Source: Bacillota bacterium (GTDB lineage: Bacteria; Bacillota; UBA4882; UBA8346). Taken from it: a stretch of DNA of 64,000 bases. Position 1 is the first letter of the stretch, and each line of letters begins with the position of its first letter. The DNA is taken from the NCBI GenBank assembly GCA_023401925.1, contig JAEXDA010000029.1:1-64000 (forward strand), given 5' to 3'. Both the position numbers and the translations under genes were made by a program. This document shows, in pieces, positions 7,448 through 55,914 of this stretch. The notes below the pieces were generated by a model that ran no database searches, was not told where the DNA came from, and saw only the letters and a program-made list of their open reading frames with translations.

Positions 7448-9205
7448 TTATTTCAGCCGGATAAAGGCCTTAAAATTCATAGAATTGATACGAATATCGT
7501 CATTGGCCAAATCCTTTTGCCCATAAATGGAGTCGAAGTTATAAAGAACTTGAACCCGTTTATTTTCGTCCGAAAATGTAATCTGCTTTTCTTGCGGCGG
7601 GTTGCCGTTTTTAAAGAACTGACCTGCAATACCGGATACTTTTTTTCGATAAATTTCATGATTTTGAACGGCAATCATGAGTTCCTGAGTATTTAAATTA
7701 TAGATGATCAGGATTTTACTCCCCGGATCCGTCTTGCTAATAGGGGTCTGGGGAATATCGATGTAATAATCAAAACCGCGAATATTGGTTAATTGGCCAT
7801 TTTTGGGGTTTTGATATTGGTAACTGAAGAAAGATTTCCCATCGCGGTCGGGGGAGGCATCCGGATCCCATTGAAACCCAAAAACCTTTGCCATTTCACC
7901 CAGCTTGAAATTTTCCGGCAGGCATTTTAAATCATGAAGGCTATGGGAATATTTGAAGTAGGTCAGGAGGGAAATGATTTGGGCCTTCTCTTCCGGAGTG
8001 ATGGGACGGTTCGGTTTCGCCAGCTTTTCACCATCGATCATGTTATATTTCATTAAGATAGCTGTGAACCGTCTGTTTTGATCCCATTTCGATATGGAAT
8101 AAGCGCTCCAAGGGCCAATGACTGAGAAAACCGCTAAAAAGGCAAGGGAAACCGGTAAGAAAATGTTGCGGACTTTTTTCGCCAACAAATAATAAAGCAT
8201 CCAGCCGGTGATCCACAAGCCGGCGATGACAACAAAATAGCGGCTCTCAGTGGTGCCGTAGGCACGAATGCGAATGCCCATCGCCAAAAACATCATGGCC
8301 AGCAATGGCAGGAGTAACCCGGGGAAAGTTACCAGCAGTTTTTGGAGCCACTTTATCTTGGAATGCAGGAGGTAAATGCAGAAAAATACCCCGCTGCAAA
8401 TAAGACCATACCAAAGCACCAGATTGGAAACAATTCCTGCCGGCCAGCTCCGGACGATGATAATCTTTACAAAATAAACGTACAAAATTACGGAATAGAT
8501 GATAATCATCGGAACAACGATATAAAGGAACAGTATTTTCAGGACTTTGGGGTAACTATCAATGTCGAATTCACTTTCCAAAAGCGGAATTTCAGCCAGG
8601 AAATAGGCTGGAGCGAAAATACCGGCAACAACAAGCCATACATCAAAATAAATGACTCCTTTTAGGGAGATAGCAAATAACATGTTCACCGTGAAAACGA
8701 TTGAGCCGATGCCAAGGTAAAGAACAGCAGCATAAAAGTAAGTGATCAAAAAACGGATCAGGATTTCCACACAATAAAGCTCAAAGTGATCTCTCCGGAA
8801 AAAATAGGGGATAAAAAGGAAAATGAGATAAAATGCAAGGGTCAAAGCAAGATATCGGGACAGGGGAACCATCGAGAAATTCGGAAGTCCATAGCAAAAA
8901 TATAAAAGGAGCCCGGTGGCGGTTCCAAGATAGAGGATGATTTTTAATCCCAGATGCAGCTTAGTCAATCTTTCCATCAGAAGCCGGATTCCTAAAGTAA
9001 GTGGAATACCCAAAGCCAGCACCGCAGCCAGCCTATTTAAATTATTCCGGATCGTTGTTGTATTGTCCAAGGACCCTGAATGATTGAGGAATATTAGTAC
9101 CATTACCGTCAGGGTGGCAAGGAGAATGGCTTCCGGAAAACGATGGAGACCTCTTAACAATTTATCCAGAGACGACTCGATTGTCGAGGCAATTTTTTTA
9201 AACAT
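7448..9205 (-). CDS. Polytopic membrane protein with a C-terminal soluble domain (possibly DUF4153-like), function unknown
   Basis: 585 aa. About 12 hydrophobic helices in the first ~400 aa, followed by a hydrophilic tail. Confidence 0.4.
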   Translation of the reverse strand: MFKKIASTIESSLDKLLRGLHRFPEAILLATLTVMVLIFLNHSGSLDNTTTIRNNLNRLAAVLALGIPLTLGIRLLMERLTKLHLGLKIILYLGTATGLLLYFCYGLPNFSMVPLSRYLALTLAFYLIFLFIPYFFRRDHFELYCVEILIRFLITYFYAAVLYLGIGSIVFTVNMLFAISLKGVIYFDVWLVVAGIFAPAYFLAEIPLLESEFDIDSYPKVLKILFLYIVVPMIIIYSVILYVYFVKIIIVRSWPAGIVSNLVLWYGLICSGVFFCIYLLHSKIKWLQKLLVTFPGLLLPLLAMMFLAMGIRIRAYGTTESRYFVVIAGLWITGWMLYYLLAKKVRNIFLPVSLAFLAVFSVIGPWSAYSISKWDQNRRFTAILMKYNMIDGEKLAKPNRPITPEEKAQIISLLTYFKYSHSLHDLKCLPENFKLGEMAKVFGFQWDPDASPDRDGKSFFSYQYQNPKNGQLTNIRGFDYYIDIPQTPISKTDPGSKILIIYNLNTQELMIAVQNHEIYRKKVSGIAGQFFKNGNPPQEKQITFSDENKRVQVLYNFDSIYGQKDLANDDIRINSMNFKAFIRLK

Positions 9206-9385: not shown

Positions 9386-10033
9386 TCATTGAATCAACAT
9401 TTCATGAAAGTCATGAACATAGCCGTCCGCGATGGCCTGGATGGCCGCTTTTTGATGGGCGGAATAACTGTCATAGACTCCATAGGCTTTCATGCCGGCC
9501 GCTTTAATGGCAGTAATGGCTTCCAATATATCGTCAAACGCAATGCAATCACCGGGAGCCACTCCTAATTTTTTGGCAGCCAGCCTGTAAATATCCGGGT
9601 GTTCCTTACCACGGCTCACCTCGGCAGTTGAGGTGAGGGCGTCGAATAATTCATAGATTCCATTGTTTTTTAGAACCGGTTCATAAAGCAACTTTGGCAA
9701 GCTGGTAGCCGTTCCGATTTTAACAGGTTGTTGTTTCAGGAATTCAAGATACTCACGGGCATGGGGCTTTAATGATATGTTATGGCCGTATTCGTAGAGA
9801 ACCATGTCATTCCACTCCCCAATGATATCGGGTATTTTTTCGTTTAAATGAAATAAATCAACGGTGTATTGCGCCGCTTCTGGAAAACTCATTGGAGCGA
9901 TGGCTTTTACATATTGTTCCGGCATCGTCAAATTACGTTTGGCCAAAAAGTCGTAGTCGACTTTTTCCCATACCCCCATGGAATCCAGCAGAGTACCGTC
10001 TAAATCAAAGATAGCCGCCTTGAAACCAACCAT
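9386..10033 (-). CDS. HAD-IA family hydrolase (beta-phosphoglucomutase-like phosphatase). Last gene of the thi operon, candidate thiamin monophosphate phosphatase
   Basis: FDLDGTLLDS motif I and downstream HAD motifs. Start lies 2 nt after the thiE stop on the same strand. Confidence 0.7.
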   Translation of the reverse strand: MVGFKAAIFDLDGTLLDSMGVWEKVDYDFLAKRNLTMPEQYVKAIAPMSFPEAAQYTVDLFHLNEKIPDIIGEWNDMVLYEYGHNISLKPHAREYLEFLKQQPVKIGTATSLPKLLYEPVLKNNGIYELFDALTSTAEVSRGKEHPDIYRLAAKKLGVAPGDCIAFDDILEAITAIKAAGMKAYGVYDSYSAHQKAAIQAIADGYVHDFHEMLIQ

Positions 10034-10035
10034 AA

Positions 10036-10713
10036 TCAGTTCCCCTTTGTTTGTAAAAATAGCTTTTTCAAGTTTCCGGCTGCCGAAAGGATATCCTTTT
10101 TGGCAATCAGGGCTGATACTACGGCAATTCCATCAATTCCCGTGTGCTCGAACAAGGGAATGCTTGTTTCATTGATGCCGCCGATCACCACACAGGGTAG
10201 GTCAACCGATGCTTTGATCCGTTTTAATTCTTCCATGGTTACCAGTTTAGCTTCGGTTTTGGTTCCGGTGGCGAACATTGCGCCGACGCCGAGATAATCT
10301 GCGCCCTCCAACCGGGCCTTCATCGCTTCCTTCAGGGAGGAAACCGAGAGGCCCAGGATTTTTCCGGGGCCGATAATTTTCCGGACAATGGAGGCGGGTA
10401 AATCTTCCTGACCGATATGAACACCGGCGGCTTCAACGGCTAAGGCGATATCAACCCGGTCATTAATGATCAGGGGAACGCCATGATCATCGGTGATCCG
10501 TTTGATTGCCACGGCGGTATTGTAAAAATCCAGGGATGAGGTTTTTTTCTCCCGTAACTGGACTAAGGTGCATCCTCCGGCAATCGCTTCTTCTACAGCC
10601 TGTTCCAGGGTGGGGGTGCTCATCAAATCCTGATCCGTGACCAGATAAAGACTATAATCGATTCGAGGCTTTGGTATTATTGGGTCCATAGTTTGATCCC
10701 TCCGTTGGTTCAA
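10036..10713 (-). CDS. thiE: Thiamine-phosphate synthase
   Basis: YLVTDQDL...LVQLREK...INDRVDIAL...GVHIGQEDL motifs of the ThiE/TMP-PPase family. Confidence 0.9.
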
Positions 10714-10754: not shown

Positions 10755-11588
10755 TTATTCATGGGTTTTGGTCTTTTCCATTATCATTTGAGGGTTTAGG
10801 ATGCTGATGCTGTCGATGATGGCCCCGCGATAACTGCCGGTACCTTTGGAGCCGGCAGTTTCATAGGCAAGCTCTCCGGCAATCCCCATGCAGGTAATGC
10901 CGGCCGCTGCCGCCAGAAAATAATCGGAGGTCACTCCGGCAAAAGCGCCTACTAATGAGGTGCTCATGCAACCTGTCCCTGTTACCTGCGATAACATGGG
11001 ATGGCCATTTTGAATTTGTAAAGTTCGTTTGCCGTCGGAAATCAGATCAGTAGCCCCGGTAATGGCGACCACAGTATTTAATTTCTTGGCCAGGCTTTTC
11101 GCGATTTCCATACCGCTTTGGTCACTTTTGGCGATATCGCTCTCGGCAGCGTCAACTCCTTTGGTCGCAGCTTCTAAACCACTCATAAATCGAATTTCCG
11201 ACATATTCCCCCGCAGGATACTGATGGTGACTTGTTCCAACAACCGGGTCACGGTTTGATTGCGCAGTTCCGATGCTCCGGCTCCCACCGGATCCAGTAT
11301 TACCGGAATATTTCTTTGATTGGCCTTCTTTCCCGCAGCCAACATCGAAGAAATCGTCCTTTGATTCAGGGTTCCGATATTGAGGACTAAAGAGGAGGAA
11401 ATGGCGGTGATGGCCTCGACTTCATCGATATCATCGGCCATAATCGGCGATGCGCCGATAGCCAGAACAATATTGGCACAGTCATTGACAGTCACATAAT
11501 TGGTAATGTGATGGATGATGGGCTTTTTTCCCCGGAGTTCCTCCAGGGTTCGCCCAATTTGGATGGGGATGGTGAGGTCTTCTCTCAT
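10755..11588 (-). CDS. thiM: Hydroxyethylthiazole kinase
   Basis: [26 protein letters not shown] motif characteristic of ThiM. 277 aa. Overlaps the thiC stop by 4 nt (ATGA). Confidence 0.9.
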
Positions 11589-12919
11589 ATCGATTCCTTT
11601 CCTTCTTTGGACAGATTGGATTTCAACTCAACATCTTGGCCGTTTAAAATGCGGTTCATGGTTCTGACTGCGCACATTTTGCCGCACATCGAGCAACTCT
11701 GTTTATCTTCCGGCGGAATGCTTTCGAAATAGGTTTTGGCTTTTTCACCGTCGAGTGCCAGTTTAAACATTTTATCCCAGTCCAGGACATGGCGAGCTTC
11801 ACTCATACGATGATCAATGTTGCGGGCATTTCTGACTCCTTTGGCAATGTCCCCCGCGTGAGCGGCTATTTTGGAAGCGATGATGCCGTCCTTTACATCT
11901 TGTAAATCAGGTAATCGCAAATGTTCGGCGGGAGTCACATAGCAGAGAAAATCGGCACCGTTTGCTGCGGCGATAGCACCGCCGATAGCGGAGGTGATGT
12001 GATCATACCCGGGTGCGATATCGGTAACCAAAGGTCCTAATACATAGAATGGCGCACCATGGCACAGGCGTTTTTCCAGCGTCATATTGGCGGCGATTTC
12101 GTCCATTGCCATATGGCCCGGTCCTTCCACCATCACTTGTACATCCTGTTGCCAGGCCCGTTGTGTTAAGTTTCCAAGCTCTATCAGCTCGGTGATTTGC
12201 GAAGGGTCTGTCGAGTCCTGAATGCTGCCGGGGCGAAGCGCATCACCCAGGCTGATGGTGACGTCATATTGACGCAGGATATTTAAAAGATCATCATAGT
12301 ATTCATAGAAAGGGTTTTCATTGCCGGTCATTTTCATCCAAGCGAACAGCAGAGACCCGCCTCGTGAAACAATATTCATTTGCCGTTTTTCACGTATAAA
12401 AATTTCTACGGCCCGGCGGTTGAGGCCCGCATGAATGGTCATGAAATCAACGCCCTCACGGGCATGAAGACGCACAACTTCCAAAAAGTCTTGTGCCGTG
12501 ATGTTTTTTAAATCTTTGTCCAGGTAGCCGACTGCATCGTAGATCGGGACCGTGCCAATCATGGCAGGAGAGTATTCAATCAGTTTTTTTCTAAATTCAT
12601 GGGTCTTGCCGTAATTACTTAAGTCCATGATGGCTTCCGCGCCATATTTGATAGCTAGCTTGACTTTATCCATCTCCGCGTGATAATCGGCGCAGTCACC
12701 GGAAATACCCAGATTGACATTGATTTTTGTCCGGAGTCCGTGGCCGACGCCGCTCGGATGCAAAGATTGGTGGTGAATGTTAGCGGGAATGGCGACTTGT
12801 CCGGTGGCTACCAGGGAAAGTAATTCCTGCTCCGGGAATCCTTCATCTTTGGCGACCTGGGCCAGCTCTTTTGAAACGATGCCTTTTTTGGCGGCTTCCA
12901 TTTGGGTTTTATAATTCAT
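11585..12919 (-). CDS. thiC: Phosphomethylpyrimidine synthase (radical SAM, ThiC family)
   Basis: 444 aa. Conserved ThiC core and C-terminal CSMCGKMCA Fe-S cluster motif. Confidence 0.95.
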
Positions 12920-13727
12920 GGGAACAAACTCCTTTCAATCCGTGTTGATAAAGCTCATAAAAATGGTGGGTTGGGCCGCAACCTTTGCCAATGGATAAGG
13001 CATGTTCGATAGCGGTCGTAACATAGTGTTTTGCGTGTTTCACCGCTTCCGGCAAGTTCATTCCCAAGGCTAGATTGGCGGCAATTGCCGAGGAATAGGT
13101 ACAGCCGGTCCCGTGAGTGTTTTTGGTGGATATGCGTTTGGCATTGTAATGATAAAATTGTCTGCCGTCATATAAAACATCCAAGGCATCTCCCACGGCA
13201 TGCCCTCCTTTGATTAAAACATTCCTGCTACCCATTTGGTAAATTGCTACCGCGGCCTTTTCCATATCCGCAGTGGAGGATATGGATTGGCCGGTGATTT
13301 TTTCAGCCTCCGGAAGATTGGGTGTCAAAACATCGGCCAACGGGATAATAACCTTGATCAGTGTGTTAATGGCATCCGGATTCATGAGGGGACAGCCGTT
13401 TTTGGCCATCATCACCGGGTCAATGACGATGTTGCCGGGCTTGTATTGCCGGAGTTTTGCGGCGACCGCTTCCATGCTTGCGGGCCCCGAAAGCATACCG
13501 ATTTTTACGGCGTCGCTGCCGATATCTTCATAAACGGCGTCGATTTGTTGCTGGATCATTTCCGGGGTAACATCTTGAATTGCCAAGACCCGGCTGGTGT
13601 TTTCAGCGACAACGGACACAATGACGCTCATGCCGAATACGCCGTGAGCCGAAAATGTTTTTAAATCGGCCTGGATACCGGCCCCGCCACTACAATCGGA
13701 TCCGGCGATCGAAAGAACTTTTTTCAT
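12909..13727 (-). CDS. thiD: Hydroxymethylpyrimidine / phosphomethylpyrimidine kinase
   Basis: [24 protein letters not shown] is the canonical ThiD N-terminus. AAGGAGAA ribosome-binding site precedes the ATG at 13727. The listed ORF extends 40 codons upstream into the riboswitch and is over-called. Confidence 0.85.
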
Positions 13728-13739
13728 GATTTTCTCCTT

Positions 13740-13893
13740 GGTTGTAGAATAAAAAAGAGCGCTCCCGGTAGAAAGCGCTCCTAAATTTTGCTTCCCTACG
13801 ACAGTGTTAACCGACAGGTTCAAAGGGTCAGGTTTTAACCTTCTCAACTCGACCGCGTTCGCGTACTTTGCGAACAGAGTTCCCCCGCATGTG
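13740..13893 (-). ncRNA. TPP (THI-box) riboswitch, promoter-distal copy A, with its own intrinsic terminator directly upstream of the thiD ribosome-binding site
   Basis: Minus-strand sequence contains GGGGGAAC...UUGAGAAGG...ACCCUUUGAACCUGUCGGUUAACACUGUCGUAGGGAAGC, matching the THI-element consensus (CUGAGA, ACCCUUUGAACCUGAUC...GCGUAGGGAA). Terminator hairpin GAGCGCUUUCUACCGGGAGCGCUC plus a U-tract at 13756-13781. Confidence 0.85.
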
Positions 13894-13924
13894 AATGATA
13901 TTAAATTGTGTTTCCTACAATGAT

Positions 13925-14090
13925 CAATAAAAAAGCACTTACCCCGAAATAGGCAAGTGCTTGATCAAATACAATAAAGTAAATGATTTGCTTCCCTACG
14001 ACAGTGTTAACCGACAGGTTCAAGGGGTCAGGTTTTAACCTTCTCAACTCAAACGCGTTCGCGTACGTTGCGAACGCGAGTTCCCCCGCA
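13925..14090 (-). ncRNA. TPP riboswitch, promoter-proximal copy B (~95% identical to copy A, 200 bp register), with its own terminator hairpin
   Basis: Second copy of the ~104 nt aptamer at 13987-14090. Hairpin AGCACUUGCCUAUUUCGGGGUAAGUGCU plus UUUUUUAUU at 13928-13962. Confidence 0.8.
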
Positions 14091-14105
14091 AATTTAAATT
14101 AATCC

Positions 14106-14134
14106 TATTATACTCCAAAAGAAGGGAATGTCAA
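14106..14134 (-). promoter_or_regulatory. Near-consensus sigma-A promoter for the thi operon (TTGACA-17-TATAAT), overlapping the 3' end of the upstream convergent-orientation gene
   Basis: Minus strand reads cTTGACAttcccttcttttggagTATAATagg. A transcription start there would lie ~10 nt before riboswitch copy B. Confidence 0.6.
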
Positions 14135-54754: not shown

Positions 54755-54950
54755 AGCGCTCTTATCCGGAGAGGGGAAGGGACTGGCCCGATGAACCCTC
54801 GGCAACTGAAAGCGGTTTGACAATTTGAAAGTCCGCCTCACAGTGCCAATTCCTGCAGGGGAAACCCGAGAGATGAGAGGAAAATGGAAAATTATAGCCG
54901 AGCTATCGCTTGGTTATAGAAACCTCTTCCTCGTGGAAGAGGTTTTTTTA
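54755..54950 (+). ncRNA. SAM-I (S-box) riboswitch with intrinsic terminator, in the metA leader
   Basis: GCUCUUAUCCGGAGAGGGGAAGGGACUGGCCCGAUGAACCCUCGGCAAC...GGUGCCAAUUCCUGCAGGGGAAACCCGAGAGAUGAGAGG matches the S-box consensus. Terminator GAAACCUCUUCC-UCGU-GGAAGAGGUUUUUUUAUUUU at 54918-54950. Confidence 0.9.
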
Positions 54951-54996
54951 TTTTAATTTCAACCTGAACCATGAAGCAAAATTAGGAGGAGATAAC

Positions 54997-55914
54997 ATGC
55001 CGATTCGAATACCAAACAATCTACCAGCCACAGAGATTTTGGGCCGGGAAAATATCTTTGTAATGACAGAAGACCGGGCTCGCCATCAGGACATCCGCCC
55101 GTTAAAGATAGCGATTCTTAATTTGATGCCGACCAAAATCACCACAGAAACCCAGTTGTTACGATTGCTTGGGAATACTCCGCTCCAAGTGGAGGCGATT
55201 TTGCTTCAGCCCAAAAACCACCAGGCCAAGAACACGCCGGAAGAACATTTGAAGACTTTTTATAAAACCGTTGATGAGGTCGCTCATGAAAACTTTGATG
55301 GCTTGGTAATCACAGGAGCGCCGGTGGAGCAATTGGATTTCGAGGAAGTTGATTATTGGAAGGAACTGACTGAAATTTTGGATTGGGCCGATCACCATGT
55401 TTACTCAACCTTTTATATCTGTTGGGCGGCTCAAGCCGGACTTTTCTATCATTATAAGATTCCCAAGTATCCCTTATCCCAAAAAAAGTTTGGTGTCTTT
55501 GAACATACCGTCAATCAAAAATATACCAAATTATTGCGGGGGTTTGATGATGTTTTCCTGGCGCCTCATTCCCGTCATACCGAGGTGCGGCAGGCCGATA
55601 TCGAAAAAGTCCCTGGACTTGAGATTTTATCGACTTCTAAGGAAGCCGGGGTTTATATCGTAGTTTCCAACGATGAACGGAGGGTGTTTGTGACCGGACA
55701 TTCGGAATACGATCCGTTAACTCTAAAAGCCGAGTACGACCGGGATATTGCCAGAGGCATGCAGATTGATGTCCCGCGAAATTATTATCCCAACGATGAC
55801 CCCGGTAAGGAACCGATTGTAAAATGGCGGAGCCACGCTCATTTGCTTTATTTTAACTGGTTAAATTACTATGTATATCAAGGTACTCCTTATGACTTAA
55901 ATGACATCCGTTAA
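54997..55914 (+). CDS. metA: Homoserine O-acyltransferase (MetA family)
   Basis: [11 protein letters not shown]...[10 protein letters not shown] is the canonical MetA N-terminus. GGAGGAG ribosome-binding site before the ATG at 54997. Confidence 0.85.

What the first reader, a model, noticed from the sequence alone, without database searches (positions are those of the whole stretch)
13740..14134. Two complete TPP riboswitches in tandem, each with its own terminator, behind a consensus promoter. The two copies are near-identical with an exact 200-bp register
Most thi operons carry a single THI element. Here two full aptamer-plus-terminator units (~95% identical over 104 nt, copy starts exactly 200 bp apart) are stacked in the leader of thiD-thiC-thiM-thiE-HAD. 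Tandem riboswitches produce a steeper, more digital response to ligand; a tandem TPP arrangement of this kind has been reported for a Bacillus tenA leader. The near-identity and fixed register point to a recent local duplication rather than two ancient elements.
Basis: seen in the sequence. Interest (0 to 1): 0.55.

Follow-up and report, generated by a model that had tools for sequence, protein, structure and literature searches.

The report
Tandem TPP riboswitches before thiD operon
The leader of a thiamin-biosynthesis operon carries two complete vitamin-B1-sensing RNA switches in series, a known arrangement; here the two sensors have been kept alike by copying between them, not by a recent duplication.

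Summary
On the minus strand, a 12/12 sigma-70 promoter (14134-14107) is followed by two TPP (THI-box) aptamers. Each has its own antiterminator and intrinsic terminator, and both lie upstream of thiD-thiC-thiM-thiE-HAD. Copy A scores 62.7 bits with Rfam RF00059. Copy B scores 51.0, below the 54.3 gathering score, because its P1 has only 3 contiguous pairs; its ligand-pocket nucleotides are identical to A's. The copies are 94% identical (97/103). The spacing is 200 nt over 89 nt and 201 nt over the 5' 13 nt.

The functional reading is supported: two independent TPP-dependent terminators in series. This is a known kind, with the B. anthracis tenA precedent and 213 tandem TPP cases catalogued in 2022.

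The "recent local duplication" reading is not supported. The whole tandem leader is orthologous in relatives whose ThiD is 97% and 84% identical. The two terminators are unrelated to each other within a genome. The 71-nt aptamer core is nearly invariant in every comparison, so it says nothing about age. In the variable P3 extension, sites group by genome rather than by position (11:0 and 14:0). This points to an older duplication followed by gene conversion confined to the aptamers. It is an ordinary regulatory element with a modest evolutionary twist.

The parts
14129..14134 (-). -35 box TTGACA; it overlaps the TGA stop codon (14133..14131) of the upstream Gfo/Idh/MocA oxidoreductase gene
   Evidence: 12/12 promoter match. 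Invariant in the four orthologous leaders. ORF end.
14107..14112 (-). -10 box TATAAT; the inferred transcription start is near 14100
   Evidence: The start site itself is inferred and not mapped.
13975..14097 (-). TPP aptamer A (Rfam span; P1-to-P1 core 14093..13986), with a 6-bp P1 AUUUGC/GCAAAU and a long P3 extension
   Evidence: RF00059 at 62.7 bits, above the 54.3 gathering score. The MFE equals the canonical TPP fold at -35.3 kcal/mol.
13949..13999 (-). Antiterminator A: aptamer 3' segment GUAGG.AAG (13999..13991) pairs with CUU.CCUAU (13957..13949), which is the 5' arm and loop of terminator A. It encloses a small linker hairpin.
   Evidence: Fold of unit A without the terminator's 3' arm. 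The same pairing is predicted in L085, L089 and L091.
13929..13962 (-). Intrinsic terminator A (stem 13962..13933, U tract to 13929)
   Evidence: Hairpin energy -17.3 kcal/mol. Orthologously conserved.
13897..13928 (-). Spacer between the two units; no promoter-like site was found in it
13775..13896 (-). TPP aptamer B (Rfam span; core 13889..13789), with a P1 of only 3 contiguous pairs UGC/GCA. It differs from A by 5 substitutions and 1 indel, none of them in pocket nucleotides.
   Evidence: RF00059 at 51.0 bits, below the 54.3 gathering score, E 4.3e-9. The canonical fold is -24.4 kcal/mol against an MFE of -26.2. The alignment consensus fold is the canonical TPP fold.
13768..13799 (-). Antiterminator B: GUAGGGA (13799..13793) pairs with UUUCUAC (13774..13768), which lies in the 5' arm and loop of terminator B
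   Evidence: An equivalent pairing in a shifted register (GGGAAGC with GCUUUCC or GCUUCCC) is predicted in L089 and L091.
13751..13782 (-). Intrinsic terminator B (stem 13782..13755, U tract to 13751)
   Evidence: Hairpin energy -17.2 kcal/mol. Unrelated in sequence to terminator A.
13734..13739 (-). Ribosome-binding site AAGGAG, 6 nt before the thiD ATG (13727..13725); it is not part of terminator B
   Evidence: Sequence. The 272-aa gene call appears in homologous contigs.
12909..13727 (-). thiD (HMP/HMP-P kinase)
   Evidence: Pfam PF08543. TIGR00097 at 350 bits, above the 205 cut-off.
11585..12919 (-). thiC (HMP-P synthase)
   Evidence: PF01964. NF009895 at 644.7 bits, above the 410 cut-off.
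10755..11588 (-). thiM (hydroxyethylthiazole kinase)
   Evidence: PF02110. NF006830 at 334.8 bits, above the 180 cut-off.
10036..10713 (-). thiE (thiamine-phosphate synthase)
   Evidence: PF02581. TIGR00693 at 210 bits, above the 145 cut-off.
9386..10033 (-). HAD-IA family hydrolase, the last clearly co-oriented and abutting gene
   Evidence: PF00702 and PF13419. Only a subfamily-level NCBIfam match.

Best explanation
The leader holds two complete, independently acting TPP riboswitches of the OFF type in series, so thiD-thiC-thiM-thiE-HAD is made only from transcripts that escape both terminators.

Proposed steps:
1. Transcription starts at the sigma-70-type promoter.
2. When TPP is bound, aptamer A locks P1 and P4. 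The segment (G)UAGGGAAG is then unavailable, terminator A forms, and the transcript ends near 13929.
3. Without TPP, that segment pairs with the 5' arm of terminator A (the antiterminator) and the polymerase reads on.
4. The same decision is repeated at aptamer B and terminator B, about 200 nt downstream.

The expected result is lower leak and a steeper response than one switch gives. For two identical ideal switches my own arithmetic gives a 40-fold instead of an 81-fold ligand range for 90% to 10% expression. Copy B has a much weaker P1 (3 bp) and a canonical fold about 10.6 kcal/mol less stable than A's (-24.4 against -35.0), so it probably needs more TPP or switches less completely.

Evolution: the duplication predates the split of the sampled relatives. 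The two aptamers, but not their expression platforms, have since been homogenised repeatedly by gene conversion.

Shown here: the sequence anatomy, the model matches, the folds and the comparative pattern. Inferred: TPP binding, termination efficiencies, the independence of the two units and the shape of the dose response.
For: Anatomy:
- Two RF00059 matches (62.7 and 51.0 bits) have identical pocket segments: UUGAGA, ACCC(C/U)UUGAACCUG and CGUAGGGA.
- The promoter matches 12/12 and there are two terminators.
- Aptamer A's MFE is the canonical fold. Aptamer B's canonical fold is only 1.8 kcal/mol above its MFE.
- The consensus fold of the 8 aptamers from 4 genomes is the canonical TPP fold, with 5 pairs in the P3 extension kept through double changes.
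- Antiterminator pairings are predicted for both units in all four genomes, and terminator hairpins range from -12.9 to -24.1 kcal/mol.
- The thiamin genes downstream are confirmed.

Conservation:
- The full tandem leader aligns end to end in L085 (ThiD 97%), L089 (84%) and L091 (84%). Both copies are detected by Rfam in each.

Conversion:
- Within-genome A-B identity is 94.2, 98.1, 99.0 and 87.0%. Orthologous identity between the window and L089 is 86.4% (A) and 84.5% (B).
- The P3 extension is 100% identical within L085 and within L089, but 56-66% between the window and L089.
- Informative sites group by genome 11:0 (window/L089) and 14:0 (L085/L089) over grouping by position.
- Flanks and platforms of A and B within a genome are at shuffle level, 46-59%.

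Precedent:
- Tandem TPP riboswitches that each terminate transcription are described for B. anthracis tenA. A 2022 survey catalogued 213 tandem TPP cases (PMC9481103; PMC5367253).
Against: - Copy B is below Rfam's gathering score in the window, L085 and L091 (51.0, 51.3 and 50.9 bits). Its thermodynamic MFE is not the canonical fold, and its P1 is only 3 contiguous base pairs.
- No experiment here shows ligand binding or termination.
- The clade's aptamers lack two J4/5 nucleotides of the Rfam consensus. A 2022 review states that some RNAs classed as TPP riboswitches prefer thiamin or TMP, so the exact ligand is not proven.
- The whole-leader MFE pairs the 5' half of A with the 3' half of B, so cross-folding between the near-identical copies is thermodynamically possible.
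- Only four independent genomes underlie the conversion argument. L091 shows little homogenisation (A-B 87%).
Confidence: 0.85

Rival explanations
1. Recent local tandem duplication of a whole riboswitch unit in this genome. On this view the two copies are alike simply because they are young.
For: - The aptamers are 94% identical, with a 37-nt exact stretch.
- The spacing is nearly constant at 200/201 nt.
Against: - Identity stops at the aptamer edges. The 5' flanks and the linker-plus-terminator segments of A and B are at shuffle level, 48-53%.
- The same tandem layout, with the same two different terminators, is present in relatives whose ThiD is 84% identical.
- The 71-nt core differs at only 0-5 sites between any two aptamers of any genome, so core identity carries no information on age.
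Confidence: 0.05
2. Only copy A is a working riboswitch. Copy B is a decaying relic, and its terminator acts constitutively or not at all.
For: - Copy B is below the Rfam gathering score in three of four genomes.
- Its P1 has only 3 contiguous pairs.
- Its canonical fold is not the MFE and is about 10.6 kcal/mol weaker than A's.
Against: - B keeps every pocket nucleotide of A.
- B and its terminator and antiterminator are conserved in four genomes, and the antiterminator complementarity is retained through a register shift.
- In L089 copy B passes the gathering score at 55.4 bits.
- A constitutive terminator with a U tract directly upstream of thiD would silence the operon, so some ligand-dependent antitermination is needed.
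- The weak P1 itself is conserved, which suggests tuning rather than decay.
Confidence: 0.08
3. A two-input logic gate: the two aptamers sense different thiamin-related ligands (for example TPP and thiamin, TMP or HMP-PP).
For: - A 2022 review notes that some 'TPP' aptamers prefer thiamin or TMP, and that some tandem pairs may therefore differ in ligand.
- TPP/HMP-PP tandems exist.
Against: - The A and B copies in the window differ only in the P1 5' strand, the distal P3 extension and one P2 pair (C to U). All junction and P4/P5 nucleotides are identical.
- Gene conversion keeps the two copies alike.
- No other riboswitch family matched the leader better than E = 1.9.
Confidence: 0.03
4. The within-genome similarity of the P3 extensions reflects selection for a particular sequence (for example a protein-binding or DNA-level palindromic site needed at both copies), not gene conversion.
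For: - The P3 extension is an 8-bp inverted repeat at the DNA level (GCGTTCGC...GCGAACGC) and is present in both copies.
Against: - The extension differs strongly between genomes (56-72% between the more divergent genomes) while staying a helix through compensatory changes. This is what a structural spacer does, not a sequence-specific site.
- L091 tolerates two different extensions (76%).
Confidence: 0.04

Closest known systems
Tandem TPP riboswitches of the Bacillus anthracis tenA leader (Welz & Breaker 2007; 'pseudo-cooperative' tandem riboswitches in Sherlock et al. 2022, PMC9481103)
   Same: Two complete TPP riboswitches sit in one 5' UTR, each with its own intrinsic terminator. Both are OFF switches that control thiamin genes in a Bacillota organism.
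   Different: - The operon differs: thiD-thiC-thiM-thiE-HAD rather than tenA-led.
- The lineage differs: an uncultured Bacillota MAG whose closest named ThiD relatives are Alkaliphilus and Lachnospiraceae at 74-80%.
- Both aptamers carry a long P3 extension.
- The second aptamer has a conserved minimal 3-bp P1.
- Function was not tested here.
Single TPP riboswitch (THI element, Rfam RF00059) with a terminator expression platform
   Same: Each unit taken alone has the standard anatomy: P1-P5 with an optional P3a hairpin, the conserved UGAGA and CGUAGGGA segments, and an antiterminator that competes with P1/P4.
   Different: Two units are stacked. Copy B scores below the family's gathering score because of P1 and P3 mismatches.
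Concerted evolution of tandem or dispersed repeats by gene conversion (for example bacterial rRNA operons or the tuf genes; cited from my own knowledge, not tested here)
   Same: Paralogous copies within a genome are more alike than orthologous copies between genomes, while the flanks stay orthologous.
   Different: - The tract is only about 100 nt, limited to the ligand-sensing domain of a cis-regulatory RNA.
- The two copies are 200 nt apart.
- I found no paper in the held library that describes this for tandem riboswitches.

Membership tests
TPP riboswitch aptamer (Rfam RF00059) | Covariance-model score at or above the curated gathering score (54.3 bits) | tested here: inconclusive
   Copy A scores 62.7 bits and meets it. 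Copy B scores 51.0 bits and does not, with E 4.3e-9 in a 601-nt scan. Orthologous B copies score 51.3, 55.4 and 50.9 bits.
TPP riboswitch aptamer (Rfam RF00059) | Canonical P1-P2-P3 / P4-P5 three-way architecture | tested here: met
   Copy A's MFE is the canonical fold. For copy B the canonical fold is feasible at -24.4 kcal/mol, 1.8 above its MFE, with a P1 of 3 contiguous pairs. The RNAalifold consensus of 8 copies is the canonical fold, and 5 pairs carry compensatory changes.
TPP riboswitch aptamer (Rfam RF00059) | Conserved junction and pocket segments (UGAGA in J3/2; ACCC..UGAACCUG; CGUAGGGA) | tested here: met
   Both copies match the consensus at these segments and are identical to each other there. 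Both lack two J4/5 consensus positions.
TPP riboswitch aptamer (Rfam RF00059) | Binds thiamin pyrophosphate selectively | not testable with these tools
   This needs in-line probing, ITC or a similar assay. The review's caveat about variants that prefer thiamin or TMP applies.
TPP riboswitch aptamer (Rfam RF00059) | Located in the 5' UTR of thiamin biosynthesis or transport genes | tested here: met
   thiD, thiC, thiM and thiE lie directly downstream.
Tandem complete ('pseudo-cooperative') riboswitches for one ligand | Two aptamers of the same class on the same strand in one leader, with no promoter or ORF between them | tested here: met
   The only promoter-like site between −10 and ATG is a 9/12 match inside aptamer A, and none lies in the spacer.
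Tandem complete ('pseudo-cooperative') riboswitches for one ligand | Each aptamer has its own expression platform | tested here: met
   There are two terminator hairpins with U tracts (-17.3 and -17.2 kcal/mol). There are two antiterminator alternatives, conserved in four genomes. This evidence is computational only.
Tandem complete ('pseudo-cooperative') riboswitches for one ligand | The units act independently and give a steeper dose response | not testable with these tools
   This needs transcription-termination assays with ligand titration.
Concerted evolution by gene conversion | Paralogues within a genome are more alike than orthologues between genomes | tested here: met
   Within-genome A-B identity is 94.2, 98.1 and 99.0%, against 84.5-86.4% for window-L089 orthologues. 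L091 is an exception at 87.0%. Site patterns group by genome 11:0 and 14:0.
Concerted evolution by gene conversion | Flanking sequence is orthologous between genomes and unrelated between paralogues | tested here: met
   Orthologous platform identity is 79-96% for A and 61-98% for B. Within a genome, platform A against platform B is 46-50% and the 5' flanks 50-59%, both at shuffle level.
TPP/HMP-PP two-input tandem | A second, different aptamer (HMP-PP, embedded in a terminator) follows the TPP aptamer | tested here: not met
   The second element is a TPP-type aptamer. No other family matched the leader below E = 1.9. I did not verify that Rfam 15 contains an HMP-PP model.

The most novel reading that the evidence does not exclude
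In tandem riboswitches the ligand-sensing domains evolve in concert through short-tract gene conversion, while the expression platforms diverge freely. The two sensors are thereby kept matched in specificity, and the platforms and P1 stems are left free to set different thresholds (a strong P1 in A, a conserved minimal P1 in B).

Lineage-specific P3 and P3a features shared by both copies in other tandem lineages suggest this may be general for tandem TPP leaders in Clostridia. Examples are L181 with CUCCGG and GGCUGAAACC, L177 with ACUUGU, and L100 with CCACGG.
Probability: 0.55. Interest if true: 0.45.

Novelty: new member of a known kind. Interest (0 to 1): 0.3.

Why it matters
As a regulatory element this adds one more case to a catalogued class, and it allows a confident annotation of the operon's control region. 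It also shows that Rfam's gathering cut-off can hide the second unit of a tandem pair. That happened here, in L085 and L091, and also in L001.

The evolutionary pattern is the only part with wider reach. It is a clean natural example in which the aptamer and the expression platform behave as separate evolutionary modules. It also warns that near-identity of tandem RNA elements should not be read as evidence of youth.

Tried and rejected
They returned no relative above 77% identity, so they did not reach the window's own clade. That clade was reached instead through the search for homologous proteins and exact-protein look-ups.
- The contig for P0003 (ThiD 86%) had no DNA available. Its gene table shows a 423-nt gap before thiD, which is compatible with a tandem leader but was not verified.
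- Five Logan contigs were cut within the leader. Four of them start exactly 30 nt (k-1) before the point where A and B diverge. This is indirect evidence for the repeat in the 94% and 88% relatives, but it gives no leader sequence.
- Welz & Breaker 2007 (PMC1831863) is not held, so it is cited only through reviews.
- I could not identify reference 82 of PMC9481103, on thiamin/TMP-preferring variants.
- My nhmmer TPP profile was seeded largely from this clade. Its bit scores are therefore biased and were used only to locate copies.
- I considered an internal promoter for unit B and found none in the spacer.
- I considered translational control by unit B. The RBS lies outside terminator B, 11 nt downstream of its U tract.
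- I looked for a terminator after the HAD gene to fix the operon's end and found none on the minus strand. Whether the DUF4153 gene (9205..7448) belongs to the operon is left open.

Full report
**Observation**

On the minus strand the region reads as follows. A TTGACA-16-TATAAT promoter lies at 14134..14107 with 12/12 matches. Next comes a first TPP aptamer, a hairpin with a U tract, a 32-nt spacer, a second TPP aptamer and a second hairpin with a U tract. These are followed by the RBS AAGGAG and the thiD ATG at 13727.

A whole-window Rfam scan at gathering thresholds reports only one TPP element, at 14097..13975 with 62.7 bits. A permissive scan of the leader adds the second, at 13896..13775 with 51.0 bits and E 4.3e-9. 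That is 3.3 bits under the gathering score of 54.3. The deficit comes from two non-standard P1 pairs and one P3 pair, not from the junctions.

The repeat finder gives 89 nt at 96% identity with spacing 200, and 13 nt at 100% with spacing 201. The 'exact 200-bp register' therefore holds only 3' of a 1-nt indel. Aptamer identity is 97/103. The leader is identical in three independent metagenome assemblies, which rules out an assembly artefact.

Downstream genes are ThiD, ThiC, ThiM and ThiE, all above their NCBIfam cut-offs, followed by a HAD-IA hydrolase.

**Anatomy and mechanism**

- Aptamer A alone folds into the canonical TPP architecture as its MFE (-35.3 kcal/mol), with a 6-bp P1.
- Aptamer B can adopt the same architecture at -24.4 kcal/mol, which is 1.8 kcal/mol above an alternative MFE. 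It has only three contiguous P1 pairs, UGC/GCA.
- B differs from A by five substitutions and one indel. These lie in the distal P3 extension and in one P2 pair (C to U); in addition, the strand 5' of the shared UGC, which extends A's P1, is unrelated in B. All junction and P4/P5 nucleotides are the same. Both copies should therefore recognise the same ligand.
- If the 3' arm of each terminator is withheld, the predicted fold pairs the aptamer's (G)UAGGGAAG segment with the 5' arm and loop of the following terminator. This is 13999..13991 with 13957..13949 in unit A, and 13799..13793 with 13774..13768 in unit B. That segment forms P4 and leads into P1 in the ligand-bound aptamer. This is the usual mutually exclusive antiterminator logic.
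- The terminator hairpins are -17.3 and -17.2 kcal/mol.
- No promoter-like site lies in the spacer between the units, and the RBS is not part of terminator B.

The best reading is two OFF switches in series acting on transcription elongation. Binding, termination efficiency and independence of the two units are inferred, not shown.

**Comparative evidence**

Scans of the genome and metagenome collections with ThiD returned only relatives at 77% identity or less. The window's own clade was reached through the protein database and exact-protein look-ups.

- Leaders from L085 (ThiD 97%), L089/L090 (84%) and L091 (84%) align with the window from promoter to ATG. The order of parts is the same throughout.
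- Rfam finds both aptamers in each of them: 63.7/51.3, 56.3/55.4 and 59.0/50.9 bits.
- Both units keep a terminator and an antiterminator in every genome. In unit B of L089 and L091 the antiterminator register shifts but complementarity is kept.
- The consensus fold of the eight aptamers is the canonical TPP fold, and five P3-extension pairs are kept through double changes.

Copy B, weak P1 included, is therefore a conserved feature and not a relic.

**Age of the duplication**

Four results argue against a recent local duplication.

1. The tandem layout is shared by genomes whose ThiD proteins are 84% identical.
2. Within each genome, the 5' flanks (50-59%) and the linker-plus-terminator segments (46-50%) of units A and B are no more alike than shuffled sequences. 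The aptamers, by contrast, are 88-99% alike. Each platform is conserved orthologously.
3. Outside the P3 extension, the 71-nt aptamer core differs at only 0-5 positions between any two of the eight copies. It is also very similar in singleton and tandem aptamers of more distant lineages. Core identity therefore reflects constraint, not age.
4. In the unconstrained P3 extension, the copies are 100% identical within L085 and within L089 and 84% within the window. Between the window and L089 they are only 56-66% identical. Informative sites group by genome rather than by position: 11 to 0 for window/L089 and 14 to 0 for L085/L089.

An old duplication followed by repeated non-reciprocal copying between the aptamers explains all four results. 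The P1 5' strand and the 3' linker were never exchanged, so the conversion tracts end inside the aptamer. L091 shows weaker homogenisation (87%).

Four Logan (k=31) contigs from other samples start exactly 30 nt before the point where A and B diverge. This is what a de Bruijn graph does at a repeat. It indirectly extends the repeat to relatives at 94% and 88% ThiD identity. One of these carries a lineage-specific P5 change inside the shared stretch.

**How unusual is it**

An nhmmer profile run over all fetched loci found two aptamers in front of thiD or a tenA-like gene in several further lineages. These are L177-L180 (Alkaliphilus-like), L093/L103, L094, L001, L100, L109 and L181. Rfam confirmed most of them, and each unit has its own terminator.

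Among loci with at least 450 nt of upstream sequence, 102 had no aptamer within 1200 nt upstream of thiD on the same strand, 35 had one and 19 had two. These counts are not de-duplicated.

In the literature, tandem TPP riboswitches were characterised in the B. anthracis tenA leader. A 2022 survey lists 213 TPP-TPP cases. A 2025 survey finds TPP-TPP to be the predominant contiguous-riboswitch arrangement (96-100%) for tenA, thiE and related genes in Bacillota. The regulatory architecture is therefore a new member of a known kind.

Neither survey mentions duplication or gene conversion. Full-text searches for gene conversion or concerted evolution together with riboswitch returned nothing relevant. 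The concerted-evolution observation may thus be undescribed, within the limits of the held library.

**Rivals**

- A recent duplication is contradicted as set out above.
- A dead copy B is unlikely given its conservation, and because an unregulated terminator directly before thiD would silence the operon.
- A two-ligand gate is unlikely because the pockets are identical.
- Selection for a specific P3 sequence is unlikely because that sequence differs freely between genomes while the helix is maintained.

**Verdict**

The functional interpretation is supported by computation. The evolutionary interpretation is replaced by an older duplication with aptamer-limited gene conversion. Interest is modest: this is a routine riboswitch architecture with a neat, probably general, evolutionary footnote.

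Noticed in passing
window 54759..54879 (+), terminator about 54921..54950, metA-like ORF 54910..55914 (true start probably the ATG at 54998): A SAM-I riboswitch (RF00162, 76.8 bits) with an apparent terminator lies upstream of a homoserine O-acyltransferase gene (PF04204). A PLP-dependent enzyme gene follows. This looks like an ordinary S-box leader.
   Followed up: partly
window 14129..14134 / 14131..14133 (-): The -35 box of the thi promoter overlaps the TGA stop codon of the upstream Gfo/Idh/MocA oxidoreductase gene, and no terminator lies between them. Read-through from that gene would therefore also enter the riboswitches. In L089 only a remnant of that gene's 3' end is left, yet the promoter is intact.
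   Followed up: no
window 14096..13783 (-): The MFE of the whole leader pairs the 5' half of aptamer A with the 3' half of aptamer B. This is a domain-swapped misfold made possible by their near-identity. Co-transcriptional folding presumably avoids it.
   Followed up: no
L091 and the P0003 contig; L173-L176: The operon content behind the leader varies among close relatives. In some, thiC is absent and a cytosine/purine-permease-family gene (PF02133) sits between thiM and thiE. Relatives at 80-81% ThiD identity (L173-L176) have a single aptamer. That state could be ancestral, or it could be a collapse by recombination between the two copies.
   Followed up: no
L181 1505..1840: This is a tandem TPP leader in a 77% ThiD relative. 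Both copies share lineage-specific P3 (CUCCGG) and P3a (GGCUGAAACC) sequences. Terminator A resembles the window's terminator B (GAGCGCUUUCC) and terminator B resembles the window's terminator A (GGUGCUUGCC), so the platform order appears swapped.
   Followed up: partly
L001 2166..2263 and L093 2620..2744: Further TPP matches fall just under the gathering score: 48.9 bits for the second tandem copy in Anaerosacchariphilus hominis, and 50.4 bits for a third element downstream of thiD in L093. Gathering-score scans therefore under-count tandem copies.
   Followed up: no
L081 3309..4654: In one metagenome assembly of the same species, thiC is called as two pieces (40 aa and 392 aa), which suggests a frameshift or an assembly error there.
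   Followed up: no
window 7448..9205 (-): A 585-aa DUF4153 membrane-type protein gene lies 180 nt after the HAD gene on the same strand, with no terminator detected between them. It may or may not belong to the thi operon.
   Followed up: partly
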